A stretch of 62,987 nucleotides of DNA, counting the filler, from Hausera hauseri (lineage: Eukaryota): NCBI GenBank assembly GCA_046269625.1. It is 9 parts of 9 records of this genome, joined end to end, with 100 filler letters (N's around TTAATTAATTAA, not from the genome) between each part and the next. Parts side by side here need not be neighbours in the genome. Positions count along the whole stretch, not along the records: positions 46,149 to 54,693 come from JBJURY010607665.1; positions 54,794 to 62,987 come from JBJURY010737654.1; 7 more parts are not named here. One strand, 5' to 3'. Of this stretch, positions 537 through 62,987 are shown one piece after another; the stretch's first letter is position 1; each line of letters starts with the position of its first letter. A program made the position numbers and the translations under genes. A model generated the notes under the pieces. The model did not search any database. It was given only the letters and a program-made list of their open reading frames with translations, and was not told where the DNA came from.

Positions 537-3500
537 TTAAATTCCATTCTGTAATTTACCAACACATGCAATGAACTCGTCGACAATCGTCTGATTAGTA
601 AATCGAATAGCAAATTTCACTTTTTTCGCTTCGCCAGTTTCCGACCCATCTATAGCTACCCAACAAAGAGTATTCTTTGAATCTTCTTTCGGAACTAAAG
701 TCGGACAGTCTCGTGTTATTAATTGGTTACAACACACTTTATGGACAATTTCTCTACGCATCAACAGACGACCCGTTACGTTTCCATCAACACTCTTTGA
801 CAAAACTTTCATCTGTCCCAGCCCACACTCTTTCCATGCATTGCAAGAATCGTCATATTTGTACAATTTAGCTCGCTGTTGAAATAGACATTCCCAACCC
901 TCCTCACCGGTAACTATATCAACCTTATCAGGCAACGCAATGATCGGATCATAATGGGGATCGTAACCATCATCATGATGACTGTCATCCTCCTCATTTA
1001 CGTTATCACCATCCTGTGCTACGGTTTTGATCGCTGATTCATTGACCGAGATCTTATCGTTCGTTAATGAACAATTGCTGCTGAAACTGTATGGAGGAAC
1101 AGTCGTTGAGAAGGTGAACGAAGGTAACGGTTTACAGAAACTGAACGATGATTTGTCTTGTTGTGATCCTCCGCTAAAACTGAAAACCGGTTTGTTTTGC
1201 ACAGTTTGTTCGACAGTACTCTGTTCTGATTTCGATTCGGTTGCTTCAACTGGAACCTGTTCGTCACCGGATGAATCAGATGATCCGTTGTCAGGTAGAT
1301 TTTCGTACGCAAAGAAGTGATCTGGAAGTTTCAGTGCCCTTGCACGTTGGATTTGATCATCTGTTACGAAAGGTTCGCTAACGAAAATGACATCACTATC
1401 ATCATCGTTCTCGTCAATATCGACTACTGCGCTTCCTTGTGGTTCTCTTTGCGGTTCTTCTTTAATCGTACCTTCTTTTGATCTTGAACAAGCGATACAA
1501 ATGTTGTCCGTTGCATTATTTTCCGTCGTGCACTCTACACACTTCCAAACCGACTGTTTACTCGATCCGAACGTAAATGGCAAAGCAGATCCGAAAACAA
1601 AAGTCGGTTTCGTTTCTTTGATATTATTCGGTTGACTACCGAATATAACAGGTCCGGTACTTTGTGTTGAATTCGGTAAATTAAAAGTAAATCCCGATGA
1701 TTGTTTAGTGTCGTTCGATTTCGACAGTTCAAAAGTAAACTTCGATACAATTGCATTGCCGGATGGTTTGGTTAATTGTGATGAACAGGGTTTTTTCGTA
1801 TTGCACGCCGCGCAACTGTCAAGGGTTGTATCGTTCATGGACAAACAAGCATCGCATTGCCATTTTCCCTTAGAGAATTTCGATAAATCGGCGCAAACGT
1901 CGCCCGTCAATTTTCCCGGGGGTTTGGTGGTTTGCGTCATGTTCGGTTTTTTCGTATTGCACGCCGCGCAAGTGTCAAGGGTTGTATCGTTCATGGACAA
2001 ACAAGCATCGCATTGCCATTTCCCCCTACCGAATTTGGCGAGATATTCGCCGATACCGGATTGCCTAACGGATGTCGTATTGCTAGTTGATGACAACCGT
2101 CCAGAACATGCCCGACACGACGCATCCGTATTGTCATTGAAGCTGCAGCAATGTCGGCATCGTAATTTAGCGGCATTAACGTTATTTGTCGATAAATTCC
2201 CAACGTTGTCAAATGATTTATCATATCGCCAAACTTCCTTTGGTGAATTCGAATGGCCGTATTTCGATTTGCGTGATTTGTTACCGGTTTTCCGTTGACG
2301 GAATTTCATTGACGCAATGTTTTCCATTGTCTGAATGATACCGGATGCGTCGTTATGGATTGATTTCAATCCAATGTCCAACATTTGTTCCAGTGAATGA
2401 ACATTGGTCGATATGACGGTTTTTATCTGATTGTTTTCCAATCGTTCAATTCGTTCGTATAATTCGCCGTTTTGCGTTTGTAATTGGCTAACGTTAACGA
2501 TCAGCTGTTCGATTAATTGATCTTTCGTTGAATTGTTGTGACGAATTCGATCGAATTCATTCGATAGCGAATCAAATCGATGGAGCATCAATTTCAATTT
2601 GACGTATAAATTCGAGTAGAGTTCCGTTTGGTGACGGATATTCGTTTGTAAATCGATAATCGATTCGTGATTGTTGTCCAATGAATTGGTTAGTTGATCG
2701 ATTTGTTGCGTTTGATGTAAATTGGACGATTTGCATTTGTCGGTAATTTCGTGCAATTTCAATTCGATTGCCGTCAATTTCTCATTCGTTATCGTATACC
2801 CGTTTTCCGATAATCCGTTACCGTACGGCCGTCCGTGCGGTTCAGTTGATTCATACGACTGCAAATTGCTGTTGCTCGTTTCCACATCGTACGTAAAGTC
2901 GAGTAGCGAATAATCCGCTGTTCCTATTGAATTGATCAATGATATTTGCTCCTCCAATTGACTGCCGATTGTTTCCCGATCATTTCGATCCACATATTCC
3001 AAATTATCCAGTCCGAACTTTACCGAATCCGATGCATCCTTTAAAAGGTCCTGAATTTGTACCGGTGATAAATTGGACCGAAGTGCGGCGATTTTCGCCA
3101 TGGATAATTTCGATTTGACTAACGACAATTCCGGATGTTGGCAATCGATTTGTTCGGCGATTTTGATCGTGTCTTCAATTTCGATGAAGTTGCAATTTGC
3201 CGATGATTTCAAATGCCAATTGACGATGAACAGACAGCCGGTAAATTTCAATTTGGTGATTTCGTCATCGGAATAACGTTTCGTGTCGAAATCGAGAACG
3301 AGAGAATTGTTGGCGAATTTCAATGGGAATTTCAATTGGGAACCGAATGAATGTCGCGATAAATTCGTAATGGGAAGATTTTTCAACAGATTATTCTTAT
3401 CCGATGGACTGATAACAGACGAATAGTATTTCACGGATTGCGCACCGAATGATTCGCTGCTGTCCGATACGAATACCGAATATTCTTGAAGCCATTTCCC

Positions 3501-4381
3501 AATGATCAATCGAACGTTTTCCGCCATGTTTTCGGACGGCTCTTGCAAAACTTCCAGGCCTTTCTTTAGAATATCTCTCAACAAACCGATTTGTGTATTT
3601 TTCTTATTGTTCAACAGAAAATCACAAATTGCCAACCAGAGTTTATTCAAACCGTCGGGAAACGAAACGTTAACAACGCCAATCGGTACGATAACGTTCG
3701 ATTTCTCTGCGAATAGTTTCTGATAAGTCAACAGACAACCGAACAAAAACGACAAAACGTCGACTTTCGTAATGTTTTCCGGTGTTTTCTTTTGAACAGT
3801 CGTAACGGGCAATTTGATGAATAATTTATTCAGAATTAAACTGAGATATTTCTTTGCCGATAATGATAAACTGTTGTTCAGTGATCCGGTTAATCCATTG
3901 ATTTGCCACATGATCGTTTGTAAATCCGGCTGTGATTTGTCGAAATAAAATAAATCCAATTCCAGTAGACGTTCGATATCGTAATTCGGTTTTTTCAAAT
4001 CGAACAATTGAACGAGATTTGAAAAATTCGATAGTTCAGCACCGAAGACAATTCGAGAAAGAACAGACAACCAATTGCCGGCAATTGGTGAAATATCCGA
4101 GTTCAATACCAAATGATTGGCAACGAATCGTCGATAGACCGATTGTTTGGTGATCCATTTCTGAACGATATCTGGAAAATTCGTTTGACTCTACGAAAAT
4201 TACAACTTAACAAGTAGCCTAAATTTAATACCGACGAACTTTCCTGGAAAATGTTTTGAGAACGAATGATAACTTCATGTGCAATTTGCGCGAGATGAAA
4301 CGCCAATTGGTAACAAAATTCCTGGCAATCGTCTGCGGTATTACAATGAAGTAACGCTAATTCCGATAATTTGTTTAGACA
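537..4381 (-). CDS. RANBP2: Nup358/RanBP2-like nucleoporin and SUMO E3 ligase, 5'-truncated by the contig end; exons 4381-4232 and 4190-537
   Basis: Leu-rich N-terminal region, coiled coil, four RanBP2-type zinc fingers (e.g. WQCDACLSMNDTTLDTCAAC), FxFG/FSF repeats, IR1-M-like segment DDSDVIFV...RALKLPDHFFAY, and C-terminal RanBD1 (DPHYDPII...TGEE...RAKLY...WKECGLG...RLLMRRE). A GT-AG intron at 4231-4191 joins the upstream exon in frame. Confidence 0.93.
1789..2026. repeat. Near-identical duplication of a zinc-finger unit, period 156 nt
   Basis: ~80 nt at 1789-1870 repeated at 1945-2026 with very few differences, both encoding GKWQCDACLSMNDTTLD(T/S)CAACNTKKP. Confidence 0.9.
4191..4231 (-). 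other. 41-nt spliceosomal intron (phase 0) in RanBP2
   Basis: Minus strand reads GTATTA...TTTTCGTAG. Removal gives continuous ...IFQESSS|SQTNFPDIVQKW...NHLVLNSD into the 1191-aa ORF. Confidence 0.85.
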
Positions 4382-10569: not shown

Positions 10570-11250
10570 TTGGAATATGGATACGAATATTTGCTTTGTT
10601 CACACCGTCTTGTAATAACCCCATTAACAGACAGATGTTATGTGACTGACAGGTGCTTTGAATTTCAATCCTGGTGGCAATGCAGAAGGACCCGCAGGAA
10701 CTGGACTAACCGAAACAATTGAAGATCTTGCAAAAGCCGTAAGGCGACAGTGCGTAGTTTTCAACTGTTGGGAGAAACTGGATAATTTAACAGGGGCGAA
10801 ATTTTTGTTGGAATAATTCAAATTGTATCTTGGTGTTACTTTGACGAATTCACTCGAATGAACTTGGAAGTGTTGTCCATTATTGCTGCACAAATATATT
10901 TTCTGAAGTGTGCGAAGGACGCAAAAGTCGAGAGATGTATATTTGAAAACAACGAAATCAAACTAAATACATTTTGTGGTATATCTATCTCGATGAATCC
11001 GTCTTACGCAGGCCTTGATCGTCTACCTAATAATTTAAATTCTCTCTTTCGACCTTTTGTAATGATGGTCCCTGATTATGGCTTGATGAGTAAAATTATT
11101 CTGTCCTCCCAAGGATTTGTTTCAGCCAGACCGTTGAGCAGCAAAGTCACAAATCTATACCGATTCTGCAATGATCAGTTGTCGTTTCGACACCATTATG
11201 ACTTTGGACTGAGGTCAATTGAGTTTGTATTAATTCTGGCCGGAGATACC
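10570..11250 (+). pseudogene. Axonemal dynein heavy chain AAA1 fragment, frameshifted
   Basis: YGYEYL..RLVITPLTDRCY / GPAGTG(K>L)TET..DLAKA..CVVFNC / WCYFDEFTR / MNPSYAG..LP.NL.SLFRP..MMVPD / HYDFGLR; at least two frameshifts and one stop. Confidence 0.92.
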
Positions 11251-11399
11251 CGATTGAAAAGAATACTGAAGAATGTTTCCCAGCATTACTCAAGGGAGGT
11301 ATCCATGTGAAGAAAAAACTCAAATGGGGGAATTTATATAGAACACTGATGTTAGGCAGCCACTACAGCATAGAGAAATCTGAGTTGTTATCGAAATGT

Positions 11400-11920
11400 A
11401 AGATAATTATGTTATTGACCGGGCCAAACATGGGTAAAAAATCTACTCTCATGCGAGGAACTGCTTTATTAATCGTTCTATCTCAACTCGGTTGCTCGGC
11501 TCCAGCTGAGAATCCCGTTATTTTGACTTCAGTTAATAGACTTCTCACCCGTCAAAAGGCCAATGATGTGATTGGGCCGAATCAATTGACATTGCAAGTT
11601 GAACCAAACGAGACAGAATATATTTTAGCTTATATGTCGGAAAATTCTTTTCTACTCATCGATGAACTTGGTTGTGGAACTGCCACCTATGATTGGTGTG
11701 CTCTGGCCTGTTTGCTATTGAGTGTTATTATCACCAATTGTACTCCGAGAACTGTTTTAGGTACTCATTTTTACAAATTGCTCGACGAGAAAGATGTCGC
11801 CTTCAAAGTTGAAATACGCCACATGGCTTTTATGGTTGAAGATGAAATTAATTCTATTACAGAAAATATTTCCCTTTTGCTGAATATAACCTTTCTGTAC
11901 AAATTAGTTAAAGGCAGCCA
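11400..11920 (+). pseudogene. MSH6: MutS domain V (ATPase) fragment, MSH6-like, degenerate
   Basis: LLTGPNMG(G>K)KSTLMR..L.QLGC, LIDELG.GTATYD, GTHF, HMAFMVEDE..ITFLYK; the last motifs are MSH6-typical. Several conserved residues are lost. Confidence 0.8.
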
Positions 11921-12049
11921 ATTCGCTTATAGTACTATGCACTTCAGGAGTAGTGAGAATAGGTCAACGGGTTCCAAATTCGTCACTATTCTTCACAATG
12001 TCCTCAAAGCCTCTGGGTAATAATCTAATTAAAAGAAAGAACCAACATT

Positions 12050-51827: not shown

Positions 51828-53640
51828 ATGTCCAGAACTTTCTACAACACTATACGCAGAGAAGCTGCTGTTTACCCTGAGCAATACTTTCATCATGTAT
51901 CAAGAATCCCAAACCAGTTAAAGTATGGTCCAACGGTGAACCGTCATGTCAAAATAATTACCATCAGAGGTCCATCAATGAGTTCATTACGGAATGTTTG
52001 TCCATTGATGGCTTAATTCTCCATATGGCAAGAGGTACAATCGTTCTCAAGACTTTAAAAAATTTACAATTCACAATGTCCAACATCGCAGTGTTATTTG
52101 AGGAAGAGACTAGCGATAAATACGTCTATGAGTATAAACATCATTCAGTTTCGTCAAAATAGAATTCCATTGATAATTATGATTGAGTGGATGTTACCAA
52201 AAAACATTTAGCTATGTCTCGCCCAATGATCTTGGCACAAACGCCACCAGACATAATAAAGGATACCAGATTAAATTACCTGCAAACTGGTCAGTCAAAT
52301 ACAATTCGAATATTGACCGCGTCCCTAGGGTTTATGATGGATAAAACCCCAATACCAGTTGAAGCCATTGTCTCAGACAAAAAAGGAAAAACATTATATG
52401 GTACCTTAGTGGTAAATAGAGTAAAGGTCCATAATTGTAATACTGGAAGGCATGGCATCGACTTCCAAGCATTAAAGTCTCATGGAATGGATATCTATGA
52501 AGTATCCAAGGAACTAATACAATGGTTATTTTGTACCTTTGTAGTTGGAATTGATAAACACCGTATGTTTCAGATATTCGATATTTCTACAAATTATCTA
52601 GCCGGTGTTATTGATGTTTCAAAACATCCAGAAGTTACTGGAATAACTTTCAATATGATAGACATAACAATGTTGCCAAAGAGTTGAAGCTCCCGGAATT
52701 TAAAAGCGGACAAAGTTATGAGCAACACAGTGAGGGAAAATTAGACTTAACACTAGATATCTTCCAGACCATCGGTGAATTGAAACAGGTGAGTTGGACC
52801 CCAGAGAATATGATAGAAAATGTGATTGATGTCGGCGAATTATTTTATCGACGAGATAAATATCTAATAGACTTTTCTTGGATGCATAAAATCGAAGCCA
52901 GCTTCATTAACCCTAGTAATACCTTAAACAAGGAAGATTTCATAGAAGATATGGACCTCAATACACCAGAAAATATTACAATGGACGATGAAGAGTCCGA
53001 AAATTCTGATGACATAATCGATAATCTCGATATTCATCAAATTCTAGCCTCAGAAACTGACGAGGAAGAAGAAGCTGAAATTGGAAGAGGGGTTTACCCT
53101 GTAAAATCCAAAGATATTTCGATCCAAACTATGCAATTGAATTCAGACAAACTATCTGTGCAGATTAATCACTGCTTATCCTGTACTGAAAAGCCTATAT
53201 TCAATTTAGGAATAATTATTAAAAAGGATTACTGAAATCTACCAATACCCATTCATCAAATCGATCGACCTTATTATTTTGGAAAAACCATTTCAACCAA
53301 GAAACTCTCTAAATAGAATTCGGAACAGAATATTTTTATCGGTGCAATATATCAAAAACCGGAAAATCAATATTTTACCGTTCCATATTGAAAGACGCTT
53401 GAAGCTACCTGTAAATTACGGAGTCCAGTTCAATACTAAATTAAGAATCAAATTGACTGTTTCCATTGTACTCGAATCCATCACCGAAACATCCTTTAAT
53501 GGACCTTTGAAATATTTACTCCTGTTGAAACAAAATCAACAATTGCTAATCCCAAATAAACGACCCAGACCAGAACGCACACCAGACAAAAATGTTATCA
53601 ACACAAGAATTGCCATGGAGAGTGTTGATTTAGACGGTTG
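51828..53640 (+). pseudogene. Fragmented 3' ORF of an LTR element with DEDDh exonuclease-like fold(s) and an acidic tract
   Basis: IVSDKKGKTLYGTLV...NT..HGI..ALK...EV..EL..WL...VVG..VIDVS resembles the REX4/ISG20 fold; acidic residues of Exo I are absent. Confidence 0.5.
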
Positions 53641-54456: not shown

Positions 54457-54885
54457 TATTTCTGGAAACCTCCTAGTGAATCCTGAGAAATATACTTTGT
54501 CTTTATTAATTAAATCCAGCTAAAATAGCAATGCGTTGGACAATAGAAAACACCGCATTGGCCAACGATTTTAAAACAAAAACTTATTGTGTATAAAAAT
54601 ATTGCACTTCATATAGTACTAAAATTGTATAATTTAATTTTAAATAGATAAATCTCTGAATTTTTCTTCTCTACGTATGTAACTTTCTGTTCCNNNNNNN
54701 NNNNNNNNNNNNNNNNNNNNNNNNNNNNNNNNNNNNNTTAATTAATTAANNNNNNNNNNNNNNNNNNNNNNNNNNNNNNNNNNNNNNNNNNNNTTGTTGT
54801 TGTTGTTTTACTGTTCTTCTTTCATTAACTCAATTAACTAGTATAAATATATAGGAGTTTTTGTCATATTGGTATAAGACGTGAA

Positions 54886-55356
54886 ATGATAATGGATTAC
54901 GTGAAGATTATTCTGACAGATGAAAATGCAACTGTTCCGAGACGTGTTACAGCAAGCAGTGCAGGTTACGATGTGTTTTCCAATGTCAATACAAGTATTA
55001 CGGACAGCACAATCAAATGCATAACGACCGGTATTCGATTGGCAATTCCATCGGGCTATTACGGTCAACTGATATCGAAAAGCGGATTAGCAAAACTCGG
55101 ACTGACTGTTGTCGGTGGTGTAATTGATTCGGACTTTCGTGGTGAAATCAAAGTGTTGCTGGAAAACCAATCCGGTGAAACGTATGACATTTTAAAGGGT
55201 AACGCAATCGCACAAATCGTTTTTCTGCGATGTGAAGAGGCGGAATTCAGTGTAATGTCACCGGAACAATGGGGACTGTTTTGTGTCAATGAAGCAACAC
55301 AAAATGAACGCAAAGAATTCGGTTTCGGTGAAATGGACAAAACCATTTATGTTTAA
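54886..55356 (+). CDS. dut: Trimeric dUTPase (variant motifs)
   Basis: Motifs SAGYDV, ISKSGLA, GVIDSDFRGEI, IAQIV, RKEFGFG. Confidence 0.93.
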   Translation: MIMDYVKIILTDENATVPRRVTASSAGYDVFSNVNTSITDSTIKCITTGIRLAIPSGYYGQLISKSGLAKLGLTVVGGVIDSDFRGEIKVLLENQSGETYDILKGNAIAQIVFLRCEEAEFSVMSPEQWGLFCVNEATQNERKEFGFGEMDKTIYV

Positions 55357-55430
55357 TTATTGTCATGATAATAATTAGTTGTTTTGATTTCTTTTGTGTT
55401 ATAAACAAATAATGATTTTGTATATAAATA

Positions 55431-55922
55431 ATGATGACGACTGGATTTATAGATATTGAGGCTTTCCAAGATAACAATGCCCGGTACGTAATAAAGGAAC
55501 TATGCATTATGGACGTCTGCAACATTTTCCACCCACTTGTGTACGTATTCGAGCCAGACATTGAGTGGAAAGAGTTGACGGAAAAGGCGAAAATTACCAA
55601 TGCGTTTCTCATACAACATCGTCATGGACTTTATTGGCATGAGGGTGTTACAAACTTTTGCGTAACATGCATTATGAGCGACATTTGTGATCGCTTCGAT
55701 ATTCGTAAAACAATGTTTTACGTTAAAGATCAAGTTGGAGGTCAGAAGTTTACACAACTGCACTCACACTTTCCAGACTTGCGAATGACGACGTATTCAA
55801 CATTGACCGACTCAAAAATGACCGTACCTGACAATATTTCATGTCCATATCGTGAACATGGACAGTACTGTGCCTATAAAAAATGTTTAGCACTTTGTAT
55901 AAATTATGTTTCATACAAATAA
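55431..55922 (+). CDS. DnaQ-like DEDD exonuclease with C-terminal Cys/His zinc site
   Basis: FIDIEAF...VIKEL (Exo I), HGLYW.EG, YVK, CPYREH...CA. Confidence 0.75.
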   Translation: MMTTGFIDIEAFQDNNARYVIKELCIMDVCNIFHPLVYVFEPDIEWKELTEKAKITNAFLIQHRHGLYWHEGVTNFCVTCIMSDICDRFDIRKTMFYVKDQVGGQKFTQLHSHFPDLRMTTYSTLTDSKMTVPDNISCPYREHGQYCAYKKCLALCINYVSYK

Positions 55923-56028
55923 ATGTATACATACGTATGTATTTTGTTTTCATTTATTTAAACATGTTTCAGACACGATCTGAGTGATTGATATAAATAC
56001 ACATAAGTTGTAATAGTAAATAATAATC

Positions 56029-56499
56029 ATGGAAATTGCAGATCAATTGAAGCAATTGCAAAATTTTAATGTGTTATCACTTGGGGAATTGGTACGATGG
56101 TGGCAAGTAATTAACAGTGATTTAGTAGCACGAGCAGCAGCGGATTTTGGATTTAAAGAAGACTTGGCGTCAATAGCATTGATGACAACATCTGCAAACT
56201 GTACCTCTGTAGAAAATCTAATTACTGTGATAAATCAAATGTACATTCACCGATTGTACGATACAAATTATTTTGATACAGTGGAAAAGTTACGTGGTGA
56301 ATTAAGTAATATGAAAGAAAAAATAGTGAACAAAGTACAAAACTTTCAGTTTATTTGTTTAGTATGTAAACAAAGAAAAGTGGATACTGCATTTTTAATG
56401 TGTGGTCATGTTGTTGTATGTCAAAAATGTTCTAACAAAACTCACTGCCCAGAATGTAAATGTGTTATAACAGAAATTGTACACGTTTATTATGATTGA
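56029..56499 (+). CDS. C-terminal IAP/MDM2-type RING finger protein (putative E3 ligase), no BIR domain
   Basis: CLVC...FLMCGHVVVCQKC...CPEC..VI..IVHVYY preceded by a coiled-coil-like segment. Confidence 0.88.
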   Translation: MEIADQLKQLQNFNVLSLGELVRWWQVINSDLVARAAADFGFKEDLASIALMTTSANCTSVENLITVINQMYIHRLYDTNYFDTVEKLRGELSNMKEKIVNKVQNFQFICLVCKQRKVDTAFLMCGHVVVCQKCSNKTHCPECKCVITEIVHVYYD

Positions 56500-56552
56500 G
56501 CAATGATAAATAAAGTTAACATTTTCATTTTCATTCATTTTCTTCAGAAATT

Positions 56553-57131
56553 ATGAATACCTTCACTTGGACATTAGAAAACTTTACCACAGACTACAAG
56601 AACAATGTTACGGTAACCAGTAATTCATTCAGTTTACAGCAGTACAATTTCTGTATTCGAATTTACCCGAATGGTGATGGTGTAGGACAATATACTCATT
56701 TATCCGTTTTCTTTGCAATTGTCAAAGGTGAACATGATGATACGTTGCAATGGCCTTTTCGTGCAGCGATTCAAATGTCTCTACTGAATAAACAGGGTGA
56801 AGTTGTTTGCTCAGACAAATTGAAAACTGATTTACGATCAACATGTTTTATGAAACCACAAGTTGAACGCAACATTGTAAGTGGATTTCCGAAATTTGTT
56901 CCATTATCAAAATTGGAATCCTTTCTCCCTGTTAATGATGACACATTAATCATAAAATTTGACTTATTGGAAATTCTACTACCATGGAAACAGTCAGAAA
57001 CAGCAATCAAACGACCGGAAAAAGCATCGAAACAACGACTTTGGAATCTTATAGAACAATTCAATGACTTATCCACTCGTCAAATGCATGTTATTGCTGC
57101 TATGCGTGAAATTGTAGACGATTATTTGTAA
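56553..57131 (+). CDS. TRAF-type MATH domain protein
   Basis: FTW.LENF, S..F, YNFCIRIYPNGDG.G..THLSVFF.I.KGE.D..L.WPF, SGFPKF, DDTLII. Confidence 0.92.
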   Translation: MNTFTWTLENFTTDYKNNVTVTSNSFSLQQYNFCIRIYPNGDGVGQYTHLSVFFAIVKGEHDDTLQWPFRAAIQMSLLNKQGEVVCSDKLKTDLRSTCFMKPQVERNIVSGFPKFVPLSKLESFLPVNDDTLIIKFDLLEILLPWKQSETAIKRPEKASKQRLWNLIEQFNDLSTRQMHVIAAMREIVDDYL

Positions 57132-57288
57132 ATGTCATATTAATAAATTATGTCATTTTGTTTGTGCTCTTATTAGAACTAAATTTGTAAAGTAAAGTCT
57201 AATATTTACACTTGTACAGTATAAATAAAGCAATTTGATACATGTACACACATATATATAGAGGTGTAATTACACTTCATTCCTGTCT

Positions 57289-57483
57289 ATGAAAAATATG
57301 TCTTCAGAAAACAACAATTCCATCGTGCAAGATAGCAGTTCCACGAGTTCGTACAGTCCGTATTCGCTCAGAAAGTCACGGTTGTACAATGGATACAACT
57401 TGCACTATCTGCGAACCCCTATTCAATTGGCATTGTCACAGCCGGTTAAAATCAAGCAAACAAAATATGGTCTGTTGGTGTAG
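57289..57483 (+). CDS. Small hypothetical protein (64 aa)
   Basis: ATG-started ORF with TATATATA ~30 nt upstream, in the viral gene array. Confidence 0.45.
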   Translation: MKNMSSENNNSIVQDSSSTSSYSPYSLRKSRLYNGYNLHYLRTPIQLALSQPVKIKQTKYGLLV

Positions 57484-57569
57484 GATTACAACATGTCTCA
57501 TTAGCTTACATGTCTCAAAAGTTACTTACTTCATTATAAACATTCATTCTCAACACTAATACAAATCAA

Positions 57570-57845
57570 ATGGAACAGTACATTGAAAGTGAGATTCAAA
57601 AACTAACTGATGATATTTTGACTGGGTATATGTTTGACGTTCAGTTTTTGTGTGAACTGACAGAAACGAGAATAATTACCCGACGTGAATATATTGAATT
57701 AATTGTCAGATCTCTCTTCATACAACGCATCAAAGATGAAATGAGACGAAAACGTCAACAACAACAATGGATTAATATCCTTATTGGCCTCACACTTTCT
57801 GTTTCAATTTGTATCGTAATCAAAAAGTTGGTTGACCATATTTAA
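57570..57845 (+). CDS. Small tail-anchored membrane protein (91 aa)
   Basis: C-terminal hydrophobic helix WINILIGLTLSVSICIVI flanked by basic residues; TATAAA at 57535. Confidence 0.7.
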   Translation: MEQYIESEIQKLTDDILTGYMFDVQFLCELTETRIITRREYIELIVRSLFIQRIKDEMRRKRQQQQWINILIGLTLSVSICIVIKKLVDHI

Positions 57846-57953
57846 ACTATTTTGCTACATGTTTTGTTTTTATGTGTCAATTACATTTATCTCGTTTCTT
57901 TGTTATACTGTTGTATAAATACCTATGCTTCTTTGGTCCTGTATGATTATAAA

Positions 57954-58403
57954 ATGTCTCACTTATCACAACTCATTTGCCTGTATTACTCCTTCGACGG
58001 TCTCCGGAGTCACCTTTACAATCTTGATCGACCTTTGCAGTATGCTTGGTATAATTCTCCTGAAACGATACTCCTAAGTGCTGAAGAGAATTGGAAAGCA
58101 CGAAAACCCTACATTCTACACATGAAGCAAATTGTTGGCGATATGGATATATTATTTGGTCAGATTTTTCGCACATGGCAGAATTTGGCGTTGTGTGCAA
58201 ACAATCCACGTCAAATGCAGTTTGTGGATGATTTTGTCCAAGGTGACCAGATGGATTACGTTCCAGTGTGGCAGTCAGCGGTTCAGATTTGTTTTAAGCA
58301 ACATTTCAATATAATTAATTCCGACGGACTCGAACATGCACCTACTGAATTGGTAAACCCATGTTGTTTGTGTGCTCCTAATTCATTAGAGACTACTATT
58401 TAG
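57954..58403 (+). CDS. Hypothetical protein (149 aa; ATG 57954 preferred over TTG 57852)
   Basis: TATAAA at 57914 lies 40 nt upstream of the in-frame ATG in AAAATG context. Confidence 0.65.
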   Translation: MSHLSQLICLYYSFDGLRSHLYNLDRPLQYAWYNSPETILLSAEENWKARKPYILHMKQIVGDMDILFGQIFRTWQNLALCANNPRQMQFVDDFVQGDQMDYVPVWQSAVQICFKQHFNIINSDGLEHAPTELVNPCCLCAPNSLETTI

Positions 58404-58826
58404 TTGTTGTACAACAGAATATAAAAATTAAATGTTTGATATCGAGTTTATTTTCAACATTTTCTCTCTTATGTATAAAATATAACCATTAATGACCACA
58501 GTGATTATAGACACTTTAACCCTAGGATGTTAATATTATTATAAATTTATAAACATTTACTTAATCGGTAAAGACGTTAAATTAAAGTTTAATAATTTGT
58601 TTTACTGAATTAATTACATGATTTAAATCAACTTCCAAAATAAATTGTGGTACGTTATTTTGATTTTATTTTCTTATTTTAATTATTTCAGACTTCAAAT
58701 ACAGGACTTTGACAATATTAACAGTCAGATTCAACGTAGGTTACTATTTTTTATAAGTATTTAATTTTAATTTTTTTTAGAATTATTAATTTTCATTAAA
58801 ATAATTATATATTTATATTTGTCGTA

Positions 58827-61800
58827 ATGAGTAATTATTACTCTATTAAATTTAACGAACATGTTTATTTCATCTGTCCTACATGTAAAACCGCAAGCAT
58901 TTGTAAATATGTTGATTTTTATACAACCCATAAAAATCATCTTGGACCTTTTACAGGTTGTTCAAAGAAAAGTATATTACATACTTCTTTGAACAACTGT
59001 ACGGCTTACAGTAATAATCTATGTACAAATGGTCCAGACCATACATCAGTGGCAAAATGTCATGATGTAATGGAAAAATATTTTTCATACAAATATAATG
59101 GGCAAGTTTTTTACATTTGTCCTGGCTGCATGGCTGTTGAAAGTGGTCTGAGTTATAAACAATTTTATGACTCGCACACTAGCCATTTGACAGCCTTTAC
59201 GGATAAAACGAAGAGGACCATTTTCATGGACAATAGACCAGGACCATCTACGTCAGCAGGAGCAGTAACAACAACAACGGTAACAGTAAGAAGGTCAGCA
59301 ACAAATCGAAAACGGAAATTTCGACTTCAAAGTACTGAAAACAATCTGACAATTAAGAGGGACATGAATGGAATGTATGTTAGCCTCCAGTTTAATGTAC
59401 AGGATGTTGGATTGAATCATATTGAAGTCAACAATGATATACGGAAAAAACTTGAAACGGAAATAAATCGGTTTGAGCACTGCAAAATTCAATTTGGTGC
59501 ATGTGTTTTATTTGAGAAGTTGGAAGGTGATCTCAAAACTTGGTGTCTATCGGTGAAGGCTTCGGAGTACAATGATACTTTTCTCAGTACATCTTCCGAG
59601 AAACTCAATGAAAAAATTCAAACCTATGCAGAACTCGGAAGTGGATGGCGGATTAAAAACATTTTGGAATTAAGTTTTATTTTAACAAAATACTCACCCG
59701 TCATCTACCTAACTGGTCATGGGTACATAAAAACACCTAGTGCTTTGTATCAAAGTAAAGCTGTAGTAAATGTACAGAATAAAGACAACTTGTGTTTCGT
59801 GTACAGTATATTATCTGTTTTACATTATAACGATATACCACATCACAATAACCGATCATCCAAGTACAGCATGTACTTAAATGAATTAAAGTACAACGTT
59901 GACGAAATGCCCATGCAGTTGAAAAATATACCAAAATTCGAAACGGAAAACAATTTATCAATCACCGTCTTCATATATAATTCAGATGTAATATATGATG
60001 CTGATGAGACTGTATATAAAAATCCCTATGTGGACATCATCTATCGAACAAAAAATCCAAATGCTCGTTCGGTACAGTTACTGATTCTTGAGGATAAACA
60101 CGGATATCATTATGTAGGAATAGTAAACTTGGATCGACTGCTAAATATGCATGACATGTTAGGCGGCATATACATCCATTGTAAATGGTGCATATTATGC
60201 CTTCACGGGTTTCGAACCCAAACTGCATTTGACAGTCATATGGCATTGTGTAAGGCACACCTGGATAAAACAACGCTTTACGTGATGCCAAAGAAGAAAC
60301 ATTTAAAATTCACAGATCACAGTAAATCAGTAACACCTGGATACGTAATCTATGCAGATATTGAGGCCTTACTAATACCCACTAATGATGATGATGAAGA
60401 TACAACAAGAACAAAGCATATTCCAATTGCAGTGGGAATGGTGATAGTTTCGTTACGAGCTACTTATTCACCACAGTCTGATTACCAGTACTTTGTTGGA
60501 AATGATTGTTTGGTACGGTTTTTGCAATACATAGAACAATTCGTTTTGTCAACTGTTGCACCATTCTACAAGACGAATGCTCAAACTCCGATGATTCCTC
60601 TCAGCACAGTTGAACAGTTGGACTTCGATCAAAGCATAACATGTTACCTGTGTGAAAGTCATCACCAAGGCCAATCGCTGGTACGTGATCATGATCACAT
60701 TACTGGTAAATATCTCGGTGCAGCTTGCAAATCATGTAATCTGTCCCGACAAATTCGCCCACAACTACCCGTTGTTTTCCATAATTTCCGAGGCTATGAT
60801 TCACACCATATTGTTAAACATGCTTTGAGCAAATTTAAACATTGGTCACTGAGTGTTGTACCTCAGTCAACCGAAAAGTTCTTGGCGCTTTTTGCACATT
60901 TGCATGGTGTTACAATACGCTTCATGGACTCGTACCAATTTCTCAGTGATTCATTAGCACGGTTATCTTCATGTATCGACAGCTTTCCACTAACGAGTAC
61001 TGCATTTCCAAACAACACCATCCATAAAAAAGGAATATTTCCATACACGTTCGCAACATCACTGGATATACTGCAGAATACAACAAGTCTTCCACCAAAG
61101 TGGGCCGGTATAACAGATGTAGAGTATGATGAGGCACATGATGCTTGGATTTCAGCAGGATGTCAATCACTACTGGACTACATGTTGTATTACTTGCGTC
61201 TCGACGTATACCTGTTAGCAGACATTTTCCAAGCGTTTCGAACTAAAGCACTTCAGGAAGATGGTTTGGAGCCGCTTTGTTTTCTTTCAATACCAGGATT
61301 GAGTTGGTCAAGTGCTTTAAAAACTCTCACAGACCCATTGGATTTACTACATGATTCAGATATGTACAGATTTTTCAACCTGGCCATTCGCGGAGGAATG
61401 ACATTTGTCAATACTCACCATACCAAATCTGATGCTGAAACGAGCCTACTGTATATTGACATCAACAATTTGTACGGATGGGCTCTCTCTCAACCTTTAC
61501 CATGCAGTGACTTTTCATGGATACTCGGTGATGGATTGGAGCAAATATGTATGGATTTACTACAGTTGGACACAGTTACGTCAAAATATGGATACACAAT
61601 GGAAGTGGATTTAGTTATTCCCGATGAGTACCATGATAAATTAGATCAACTACCACTTGCTCCCGAACTCAAATGTCCACCAAACAGTACTGTGAAAAAA
61701 TTGCTTTTGACTCATAGTCCAAAATACAACTATGTAATACATTGGAGATTACTTCAATGCTTTGTAAATCTCGGAGCTAAGGTAGTTAAGGTACATCGGA

Positions 61801-62681
61801 TAATAAAGTACCGTCAGGCAAACGTATTTGCCAATTACATCAATTTTAACTCAGAACGTCGAGCCTCTTCCACATCACAGTTTGACAAGGATTTTTACAA
61901 ACTCAAGAATAATTCGCTTTATGGAAAGACAGTAGAAAATCTTCTCAAACGACTGAACATTAGATTGTGTAATAATGAAAAGCAATTTCTGACGTATACC
62001 AGCCATTATGGATTTAAACGTAGTATGCACATAGCAGACAGTTTAGTAGCCATTTTACTCAACCGAAATGCAGTATGTTTGGACCGACCCATATACATCG
62101 GTGAAACTGTATTGGATCTGAGTAAGCTGCGCATGTACGAACTACAGTATAAGGAATTGGAATCATACCGACATCATTTCAACTGTGGTATAGATATTAT
62201 TGCTGGTGATACTGATAGTTTTTTCCTCCGCTGCCGTAACGTTGACAAATTTGAATTGCTCAAAAAGATGCAAGAGGACAGACTACTAGACACAAGCAAT
62301 TATCCCCCTGACCATCCCCTGTATTCGAGTAATTTCGCCAATCAAATAGGATTATTTAAGGATGAGGGACATGGTGATGAATTTGATGAAGCTGTGTTCC
62401 TTAATACCAAATGCTACAGTTTGCATCGATCTGGTCATGGTCATATGCGTGCAAAAGGTGTAATCCTCAAACAGACAACAATAAATCATGATGACTACCT
62501 GAAAGTCTATAACGATGGTACGGTGTTCAATGCTGCTCAGACTACGTTTCAATCCGTTAATCATCAGATCCATACGGTAAAACGCATGAAACGTGCACTA
62601 ACAATATTCGAAGACAAACGACACTGGGTGAGTCGTAATATATCTTTAGCTTACGGTCATTGGAGGCTAAATAATAATTAA
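58827..62681 (+). CDS. polB: Protein-primed family B DNA polymerase with N-terminal zinc-finger repeats and an inserted endonuclease VII-like domain
   Basis: YADIE, FHNFRGYDSH, RFMDS, KGIFPY, YLRLDV, IRGG, YIDINNLYG, KLKNNSLYGKT, GDTDS, KCY, AKGV; RDHDHITG..GAAC..CN at 60642-60740. Uninterrupted 1284 aa. Confidence 0.96.
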   Translation: MSNYYSIKFNEHVYFICPTCKTASICKYVDFYTTHKNHLGPFTGCSKKSILHTSLNNCTAYSNNLCTNGPDHTSVAKCHDVMEKYFSYKYNGQVFYICPGCMAVESGLSYKQFYDSHTSHLTAFTDKTKRTIFMDNRPGPSTSAGAVTTTTVTVRRSATNRKRKFRLQSTENNLTIKRDMNGMYVSLQFNVQDVGLNHIEVNNDIRKKLETEINRFEHCKIQFGACVLFEKLEGDLKTWCLSVKASEYNDTFLSTSSEKLNEKIQTYAELGSGWRIKNILELSFILTKYSPVIYLTGHGYIKTPSALYQSKAVVNVQNKDNLCFVYSILSVLHYNDIPHHNNRSSKYSMYLNELKYNVDEMPMQLKNIPKFETENNLSITVFIYNSDVIYDADETVYKNPYVDIIYRTKNPNARSVQLLILEDKHGYHYVGIVNLDRLLNMHDMLGGIYIHCKWCILCLHGFRTQTAFDSHMALCKAHLDKTTLYVMPKKKHLKFTDHSKSVTPGYVIYADIEALLIPTNDDDEDTTRTKHIPIAVGMVIVSLRATYSPQSDYQYFVGNDCLVRFLQYIEQFVLSTVAPFYKTNAQTPMIPLSTVEQLDFDQSITCYLCESHHQGQSLVRDHDHITGKYLGAACKSCNLSRQIRPQLPVVFHNFRGYDSHHIVKHALSKFKHWSLSVVPQSTEKFLALFAHLHGVTIRFMDSYQFLSDSLARLSSCIDSFPLTSTAFPNNTIHKKGIFPYTFATSLDILQNTTSLPPKWAGITDVEYDEAHDAWISAGCQSLLDYMLYYLRLDVYLLADIFQAFRTKALQEDGLEPLCFLSIPGLSWSSALKTLTDPLDLLHDSDMYRFFNLAIRGGMTFVNTHHTKSDAETSLLYIDINNLYGWALSQPLPCSDFSWILGDGLEQICMDLLQLDTVTSKYGYTMEVDLVIPDEYHDKLDQLPLAPELKCPPNSTVKKLLLTHSPKYNYVIHWRLLQCFVNLGAKVVKVHRIIKYRQANVFANYINFNSERRASSTSQFDKDFYKLKNNSLYGKTVENLLKRLNIRLCNNEKQFLTYTSHYGFKRSMHIADSLVAILLNRNAVCLDRPIYIGETVLDLSKLRMYELQYKELESYRHHFNCGIDIIAGDTDSFFLRCRNVDKFELLKKMQEDRLLDTSNYPPDHPLYSSNFANQIGLFKDEGHGDEFDEAVFLNTKCYSLHRSGHGHMRAKGVILKQTTINHDDYLKVYNDGTVFNAAQTTFQSVNHQIHTVKRMKRALTIFEDKRHWVSRNISLAYGHWRLNNN

Positions 62682-62987
62682 TTGCTTTATTACGGCATTT
62701 ATAATTATCAATTATTTTATTGAATTTTCTTTGGCTGACGATGACGAAATCGGATAATGTGTGGAGAATTTCAGTCAGTGCTCAGTACAGTTAATGATTT
62801 GACATTCTGTACATAAACATGTACATTAGTCATTTGACATGATGTTAATAAAATTTGTCATTTATGTGATAATGTCAATAAATTTTACATTTCTCTTTTA
62901 TTTTACTTTTATTTTACCTTGATGAGCTCACGACTGAAAAAAAATTGCAGTTACAACGTGTTTTTGTTTCGACGAACAACGCGTTTC

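What the first reader, a model, noticed from the sequence alone, without database searches (positions are those of the whole stretch)
54794..62987. Intact-looking Polinton/adintovirus-like genome arm with a host-modulation gene cluster
Seen: eight co-oriented uninterrupted ORFs, in contrast to the decayed TEs elsewhere. dUTPase, DEDD exonuclease, RING, MATH, two small proteins and one unknown protein precede pPolB. Known: pPolB with an endonuclease VII-like insertion marks one Polinton/adintovirus group. Inference: a recently active or exogenous virus with an unusually rich accessory region.
Basis: partly seen in the sequence, partly recalled or inferred. Interest (0 to 1): 0.72.

Follow-up and report, generated by a model that had tools for sequence, protein, structure and literature searches.

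The report
Young Polinton arm with swapped polymerase
This is one arm of a Polinton (a virus-like jumping element) from a large, mostly decayed family in an animal genome; it likely stands for a recently multiplied subfamily whose polymerase and end repeats differ from its relatives', and its small extra genes are predicted to blunt host transposon silencing and immune signalling.

Summary
The eight same-strand ORFs are real, but two labels need correcting. The 64-codon ORF is a deletion remnant of a ~150-codon gene. The 'DEDD exonuclease' folds best on Maelstrom, keeps the E-C-H-C zinc site and lacks two of the four acidic residues. The stretch is a whole contig that ends inside a terminal inverted repeat (TIR). 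Related contigs of the same genome link the cassette to integrase, packaging ATPase, capsid and protease genes, so it is a Polinton/adintovirus arm. Most relatives are broken. Nine carry a different polymerase (about 50% identical), reversed, and that layout ends in a TIR sharing only the last 10 bases. In a run of the host species, exact pieces lie at about 9-35 times single-copy depth and include deletion variants. Most likely this is a young multi-copy subfamily collapsed in assembly; a replicating virus is not excluded. Near-identical copies in three other organisms' runs could be trace DNA. Polymerase replacement and MAEL, IAP and dUTPase genes are already described for Polintons, and this scan met the MAEL gene before in another genome. 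The stand-alone TRAF-type MATH gene is the least familiar part.

The parts
54886..55356 (+). dUTPase (156 aa)
   Evidence: PF00692 E 4.5e-26; median dN/dS 0.18 over 20 copies
55431..55922 (+). Maelstrom (MAEL)-like DEDD-fold protein (163 aa); predicted zinc site E23-C138-H143-C147; D8 and E10 kept, Lys at the likely third and fourth acidic positions (K106, K151)
   Evidence: Model pLDDT 73.7; top three VIA rows are Maelstrom, Z 10.9/9.4/8.9; best viral folds include a Drosophila-associated adintovirus 2 protein, E 1e-7; conservation in 105 homologues
56029..56499 (+). RING protein (156 aa) with a C-terminal IAP-type RING; no BIR domain detected
   Evidence: PF13920 E 2.7e-8; best PDB match cIAP1 RING E 8e-8
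56553..57131 (+). Stand-alone TRAF-type MATH domain plus a ~55-aa tail (192 aa)
   Evidence: PF22486/PF21355; PDB TRAF1 6.6e-27, TRAF2 2.5e-24, TRAF3/5 about 1e-23, TRAF6 6e-8; 150 matches scored in the own genome
57289..57483 (+). Truncated remnant (64 aa) of a ~150-aa gene family of unknown function
   Evidence: Relatives continue for about 90 more codons; L018 holds the full gene and then the region upstream of the next ORF
57570..57845 (+). 91-aa protein with a hydrophobic C-terminal stretch, function unknown
   Evidence: No Pfam hit; median dN/dS 0.20 over 18 copies
57954..58403 (+). 149-aa helical protein, function unknown
   Evidence: Low-confidence model, pLDDT 58.5; no informative fold match; median dN/dS 0.24 over 20 copies
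58827..62681 (+). Protein-primed family B DNA polymerase, lineage 'A' (1284 aa), with two tandem Cys/His repeats at the N-terminus
   Evidence: 743 homologues; motif positions YADIE 509, HNFRGYD 652, YIDINNLY 876, KLKNNSLYGK 1025, AGDTDS 1126 (their exo/pol labels are recalled); repeats 40% identical, E 7e-13; sister to P0001, then P0002 = lineage B
60621..60743 (+). Endonuclease VII/HNH-type insert in the polymerase (aa 599-639)
   Evidence: PF02945 E 3.2e-6
62819..62987 (.). Inner part of terminal inverted repeat type 'A'; the contig ends inside it
   Evidence: Last 77 bases 97% identical to L066, last ~168 bases 73-75% to L068/L069; L017, L066 and L069 run on to a common ...CTACCTACT end with different flanks

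Best explanation
This contig is the polymerase-side arm of a Polinton/Maverick (adintovirus) of a large integrated family, and it likely represents a young subfamily of roughly 10-35 near-identical copies that were merged into one contig, which would explain why its genes look intact. Shown: the gene content, the linkage of the same cassette to integrase, ATPase, capsid and protease on related contigs, integrated ends with different flanks, and two polymerase lineages, each found with its own TIR type, sharing the cassette and closely related capsid genes. Inferred from Polinton biology: the element would copy itself by protein-primed replication from its TIRs and insert with its rve integrase. 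Polymerase and TIR body were likely exchanged together, because the polymerase and its terminal protein must read the origin in the TIR, while the last 10 bases, likely read by the shared integrase, stayed fixed. Predicted, untested: the MAEL-like protein binds RNA through a zinc-stabilised, probably weak or dead nuclease fold and acts as a decoy in piRNA silencing; the lone MATH domain competes with host TRAFs for receptor tails; the RING is an E3 ligase; the dUTPase keeps uracil out of replicating DNA.
For: Cassette on one contig with ATPase and/or integrase in 7 contigs (L011-L014, L020, L029, L127; integrase in 4). Integrase and capsid together in 7 of 20 contigs fetched. L069 reads capsid, protease motifs, TIR-A, end. 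Capsid C-terminus: 150 of 150 scored matches at 82% or more. TIR-A end motif with a different flank in 15 of 20 loci. Lineage-B polymerase (about 50% to the window, 54-73% to P0002) lies reversed right after the cassette in 9 contigs (L012, L015, L016, L021, L054, L062, L137, L158, L161). TIR-A and TIR-B share only the terminal 10 bases. In run X2, which holds a host stretch in exact pieces at depth 6.8-20.1, exact element pieces lie at 144-542, with internal deletion variants at 85 and 65. An independent contig of run X1 bridges ORF149 and the polymerase (58168-60291, 1 difference), so the layout is not an assembly chimera.
Against: No contig shows this exact subfamily joined to host DNA or to core genes: the first and last bases have no long exact neighbour (one 32-base overlap leads into a diverged TIR). 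Apart from two short pieces at 95-97%, its nearest genomic relatives are 76-85% identical, with no graded age series. Contig depth is a rough measure and the tool warns it is no copy number; the host baseline is a single stretch. Depth in X2 is uneven along the arm (144 to 542 to 342), and X2 differs from the window at an AAC repeat. The pairing of polymerase A with TIR-A rests on two contigs (window, L017), and TIR-A also lies beside a third polymerase in L088. All accessory functions rest on fold or family resemblance.
Confidence: 0.6

Rival explanations
1. The contig comes from a free, replicating Polinton virus (a reactivated copy or an outside infection) in the sampled animal, related to but separate from the old integrated family.
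For: Depth about 9-35 times the host baseline in X2, uneven along the arm. No near-identical flanked copy found in the assembly. Near-identical sequence with run-private substitutions in runs of other organisms (X1 at 55481, 56711, 56715; X3 at 59894; X4 at 54863). Synonymous distance of about 0.6-0.7 to most genomic relatives.
Against: Collapse of young integrated copies gives the same depth and the same missing junctions. The same deletion variants occur in X2 and, in similar proportion, in X1 or X3. The arm itself carries a truncated gene. Old-family variants are seen in all four runs as well.
Confidence: 0.25
2. It is one recent insertion (single locus), and the high depth in X2 comes from library bias or from summed relatives.
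For: The window's assembly gives one unbroken 8.2-kb contig; X1 shows depth 15-20 with two MATH-region forms at about half depth (9.2 and 8.2).
Against: The X2 figures are for single exact pieces, not sums, and host pieces in the same run span only 6.8-20.1. More than two forms are seen.
Confidence: 0.1
3. It is a non-viral linear plasmid, transpoviron-like element or Helitron-borne polymerase without virion genes.
For: No virion or integrase gene lies on this contig itself.
Against: The cassette is linked to ATPase and integrase, and TIR-A to capsid and protease, on related contigs. The contig's first bases match the spacer that follows the core-side genes in relatives.
Confidence: 0.05

Closest known systems
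Adintoviruses / animal Polintons-Mavericks (Starrett et al. 2021, PMC8502044; read parts 2-3 of 6 of the text, term passages, and term hits in the supplement)
   Same: pPolB, rve integrase, packaging ATPase, capsid, adenain-type protease, TIRs and accessory genes upstream of PolB. Supplementary Fig. S2 labels MAEL (4 hits), IAP (2) and dUTPase (1) genes. Exchange of virion and PolB modules between lineages is described.
   Different: A stand-alone TRAF-type MATH gene beside a BIR-less RING: TRAF and TBP labels occur there only in figure legends of the section on non-animal datasets, with 0 TRAF hits in the supplement text held, which was cut when stored. Alpha/Beta class not tested.
pPolB replacement in nematode Polintons (Jeong et al. 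2023, 10.1101/2023.08.22.554363; term passages and section 8)
   Same: One Polinton backbone with two polymerases; HNH-type insert in the polymerase.
   Different: There the two polymerases are deeply divergent and cross phyla. Here they are sister lineages about 50% identical within one genome, the gene also changes place and direction, and the TIR body differs with it.
Replication-module mosaicism in Polisuviricotina (Barth, Ha, Aylward preprint 10.64898/2026.10.13.758929; abstract, sections 11 and 13)
   Same: Replicases reassort against capsid modules; pPolB and DDE integrase are proposed to act on the same genome ends.
   Different: Their analysis is across classes; this is a fine-scale case inside one host family.
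Maelstrom MAEL domain (Chen et al. 2015, PMC4408791; abstract and term passages); mael-linked insect polintons (Pannagram preprint 10.1101/2025.02.07.637071; term passages)
   Same: DEDD fold with an ECHC zinc site and loss of catalytic acids; a 'mael' gene marks one cluster of lepidopteran polintons.
   Different: ORF2 is a 163-aa minimal domain, 9-12% identical, without HMG box; it keeps D8 and E10; activity untested.

Membership tests
Polinton/Maverick (adintovirus) | Protein-primed family B polymerase | tested here: met
   1284-aa ORF, 743 homologues, many with PF03175 and PF02945; motifs present; the window protein itself did not reach PF03175
Polinton/Maverick (adintovirus) | rve integrase | tested here: met
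   PF00665 E 4.1e-13 on L013, same contig as the cassette; shown for relatives at 76-80% nucleotide identity, not on this contig
Polinton/Maverick (adintovirus) | Packaging ATPase | tested here: met
   Pox_A32 best family, E 1.9e-4, just under the cut-off, on a broken copy in L012; relatives only
Polinton/Maverick (adintovirus) | Major capsid protein and maturation protease | tested here: inconclusive
   Capsid and adenain labels rest on recalled motifs and gene position; the 416-aa L110 ORF had no informative Pfam hit; PF00770 rings on 14 other contigs of the genome; no fold was run
Polinton/Maverick (adintovirus) | Minor capsid (penton) | tested here: inconclusive
   Two ORFs between integrase and capsid look penton-like by recalled motif; no Pfam hit
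Polinton/Maverick (adintovirus) | Terminal inverted repeats of 100-1500 bases | tested here: met
   The same repeat lies outward of polymerase A (window, L017) and of the capsid-protease end (L069); common end in 15 of 20 loci
Polinton/Maverick (adintovirus) | 5-8 base target-site duplication | not testable with these tools
   No contig seen holds both ends of one insertion
Alpha vs Beta adintovirus / Group 1 vs 2 pPolB | Placement against named reference polymerases | not tested
   The tree held unnamed homologues only
Maelstrom-like (MAEL) domain | DEDD/RNase H-like fold nearest to MAEL | tested here: met
   VIA 9nhc_F Z 10.9, rmsd 3.3, 153 aligned; 4ybg Z 9.4; 5af0 Z 8.9; next non-MAEL row Z 8.8; Foldseek TMq 0.59-0.66 to Maelstrom against 0.42-0.49 to TREX, none at E below 0.001
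Maelstrom-like (MAEL) domain | ECHC zinc ligands | tested here: met
   E23 102, C138 101, H143 66, C147 98 of 105 homologues; geometry and zinc binding not measured
Active DEDD exonuclease | Four acidic catalytic residues | tested here: not met
   D8 (D 85, E 15 of 105) and E10 (E 53, Q 41) present; K106 (99 of 105) and K151 (K 55, N 32) stand where the third and fourth acids are expected by recalled motif spacing
Full TRAF adaptor | RING, zinc fingers and coiled coil fused to MATH | tested here: not met
   The 192-aa ORF holds MATH only; the neighbouring RING gene is separate and IAP-type

The most novel reading that the evidence does not exclude
A Polinton caught as a live virus: replicating to tens of copies per host genome, moving between host species as near-identical strains, freshly made by swapping polymerase and end repeats onto a resident backbone, and armed with a Maelstrom decoy against piRNA silencing and a lone TRAF domain against immune signalling.
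Probability: 0.12. Interest if true: 0.75.

Novelty: new member of a known kind. Interest (0 to 1): 0.4.

Why it matters
Particles of these elements have rarely or never been seen (PMC8097293, start of abstract in the search listing), so a subfamily at 9-35 times host depth is a candidate for asking whether animal Polintons still replicate. The family also shows, inside one genome, a polymerase and its end repeats changing together on a shared capsid and accessory backbone, which makes the idea that polymerase and TIR form one exchangeable unit testable. The MAEL-like and lone TRAF-domain genes give two concrete, small proteins for testing how such elements cope with host silencing and immunity. 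If the depth is only collapsed young insertions, the finding is a good but ordinary Polinton.

Tried and rejected
Scans of metagenome contigs and viral contigs with the polymerase found no confirmed locus. PDB sequence search with the polymerase gave 0 hits at E 1; NCBIfam gave nothing useful for 7 proteins. No RNA holder was listed, so expression is untested. The Atlas did not answer. ORF149: low-confidence model and only generic helical-bundle matches, best Z 7.7. The ~150-aa gene family had no PDB or PHROG match. A CTACTTACT in L052 looked like an element end but is ordinary sequence upstream of the 91-aa gene: rejected. Assembly chimera at the ORF149-polymerase joint: rejected by X1 record 6 and overlapping X2 pieces. 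Horizontal transfer to organisms of X1, X3, X4 is not claimed: X3 and X4 depths (2.3-6.8) lie well under the depth of their other long contigs (14-40), the profile along the arm roughly follows X2, and X1 has no host baseline, so trace DNA of the carrier species explains it as well. No exact extension of the contig's left end was found. Literature searches for a MATH/TRAF gene in an animal Polinton returned only the papers named above and a review whose MATH passages concern planarian LTR elements (PMC6431247, term passages); subscription papers, Repbase and bioRxiv supplements were not visible. The host phylum was not determined. No complex prediction was run.

Full report
Observation. The finding covers the last stretch of the pack, which is the whole contig G000:C737654 (8194 bases) of an 869-Mb assembly in 909,086 contigs. 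Eight + strand ORFs are present. Pfam gives dUTPase, a C3HC4 RING, a TRAF-type MATH domain and an endonuclease VII insert at aa 599-639 of the 1284-aa polymerase; ORF2 and the three small ORFs have no hit. Against copies elsewhere in the genome the median dN/dS is 0.18-0.39 per gene, so these are long-selected genes (pairwise counts, rows under 58% identity, short rows and duplicate loci left out, three lineage-B rows slipped into the polymerase set). In 72 of 107 of these comparisons the other copy has stops or is in pieces.

Family context. The contig matched 40 of 40 scored contigs, nearly all at 76-85% nucleotide identity. The cassette lies on one contig with an ATPase and/or an rve integrase in L011-L014, L020, L029 and L127, with a TBP-like gene between (PF00352). 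Seven of 20 contigs fetched, chosen mostly for length, carry integrase and the capsid-like gene together. The capsid C-terminus gave 150 of 150 scored matches at 82% or more out of 5404 candidates, many with stops. Adenain-like motifs follow the capsid gene. The capsid, penton and protease labels are recalled motifs, not profile hits.

Ends. The last 77 bases of the window are 97% identical to L066, and the last ~168 bases match L068 and L069. L017 (polymerase 85% identical to the window's), L066 and L069 (capsid-protease side) run on to the same ...ATATCTACCTACT end and then differ. A search with that end gave 40 of 40 scored matches, and 15 of 20 loci showed the end motif, each with its own flank. 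So the contig stops inside a TIR of an integrated family. Target-site duplications could not be tested.

Mosaic layout. Two main polymerase lineages occur: A (window, P0001) and B (P0002), about 50% identical and sister groups in a 38-row FastTree tree of unnamed homologues (a subset of the 120 listed hits, those under 1000 aa left out). In 9 contigs polymerase B lies reversed directly after the cassette, in at least 9 it lies head to head with the 91-aa and 149-aa genes, and those genes are followed by a different repeat, TIR-B, in 8. In the window the cassette runs straight into those two genes, then polymerase A in the same direction, then TIR-A. L018 also goes from the cassette to the region upstream of the 91-aa gene without polymerase B, and shows that the window's 64-codon ORF lost the rest of its gene by deletion. 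L019 and L063-L065 have yet another polymerase in the window's position. Closely related capsid genes abut either TIR, and the two TIRs share only the last 10 bases. P0001 with an ORF2 homologue, and P0002 with another, are each on record from contigs of equal length (10226 and 10114), which suggests both layouts exist intact in other assemblies. The joint between ORF149 and polymerase A is bridged by an independent contig. I infer that polymerase and TIR body move as a unit; the pairing rests on few contigs and L088 shows TIR-A beside a third polymerase.

Age and state. Nine runs under nine organism labels hold part of the stretch; four were laid. X2 holds a host stretch of the window in exact pieces at depth 6.8-20.1, so it is the host species and may be the source sample. 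There the element's eight listed exact pieces lie at 144-542, about 9-35 times a baseline near 16, and two internal deletions stand at depth 85 and 65. This fits many near-identical copies merged into one contig, some defective, or replicating DNA. X1, X3 and X4 lack the host stretch but hold the element at about 99.9% (X1: 8 pieces, 0-4 differences each) with a few private substitutions. In X3 and X4 the depth is far under that of their other long contigs, and the profile roughly follows X2, so trace DNA of the carrier species is as good an explanation as infection. The tool warns that contig depth is no copy number; these are estimates.

Accessory genes. ORF2 was folded from a six-row alignment (pLDDT 73.7). 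The three best structural matches among 48,161 chains are Maelstrom (Z 10.9, 9.4, 8.9), ahead of other DEDD nucleases (8.8 and lower) and Lassa NP (8.3); the best viral folds include an adintovirus protein. The family has 535 members at E 0.001 or better. In 105 of them E23, C138, H143 and C147 are kept in 102, 101, 66 and 98, matching the ECHC zinc site described for MAEL, while Lys or Asn stands where two catalytic acids are expected. The MATH domain is closest to TRAF1/2/3/5, has only 3 database homologues of similar length but at least 150 matches in this genome, and is optional: L021, L018 and L054 go from RING to the next gene without it. The RING resembles IAP RINGs. Decoy and E3 roles are inference from these resemblances.

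Comparison and verdict. Works like, and by the tests above belongs to, the animal Polintons/adintoviruses, with capsid, penton and protease shown only by motif and only on relatives. Polymerase replacement, module mosaicism and mael-linked polintons are in print. What is less familiar is the lone TRAF domain, not found for an animal Polinton in two literature searches, the fine-scale pairing of polymerase and TIR type in one genome, and the high depth. New member of a known kind; interest 0.4. Confidence 0.6 for a collapsed young subfamily, 0.25 for replicating virus.

Noticed in passing
window 537-3911 (-): An intronless 1124-aa ORF with three RanBP zinc ribbons and a RanBP1 domain; its stretch has CpG observed/expected 1.65 against 0.6-1.1 elsewhere, so it may come from another organism in the assembly.
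   Followed up: partly
window 10858-12020 (+): A dynein motor fragment (AAA_6, E 1.4e-43) and a MutS domain V fragment (E 2.9e-32) lie side by side as short intronless ORFs: captured or decayed gene pieces.
   Followed up: partly
window 52214-53235 (+): Two ORFs (157 and 141 aa) without Pfam or NCBIfam hits.
   Followed up: partly
L013:2573-2986 (+) and relatives: A TATA-binding-protein-like gene (PF00352, E 4.6e-9) sits between the ATPase and the cassette in this Polinton family.
   Followed up: partly
window 58827-59240 and 58690-58790: The polymerase starts with two tandem Cys/His repeats; upstream lie AG/GT signals that look like small untranslated or coding exons (sequence reading). No RNA was available.
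   Followed up: partly
L017:6476-8292 (-): Three ORFs of 131-169 aa without clear Pfam hits just outside a TIR-A end.
   Followed up: no
window 56750-62875 in run X2: Depth of exact pieces rises from 144 near MATH to 542 in the polymerase and falls to 342 near the TIR; unexplained (partial copies or replication from the end).
   Followed up: no
L116, L124, L125, L108: Capsid ends lie next to other copies' right ends or other polymerases, suggesting tandem or nested Polinton insertions.
   Followed up: no
L013:3180-3626, L012:5445-5912, L017:2085-2447: The unknown ~150-aa gene family occurs as diverged paralogues on both sides of the cassette and after polymerase A.
   Followed up: partly
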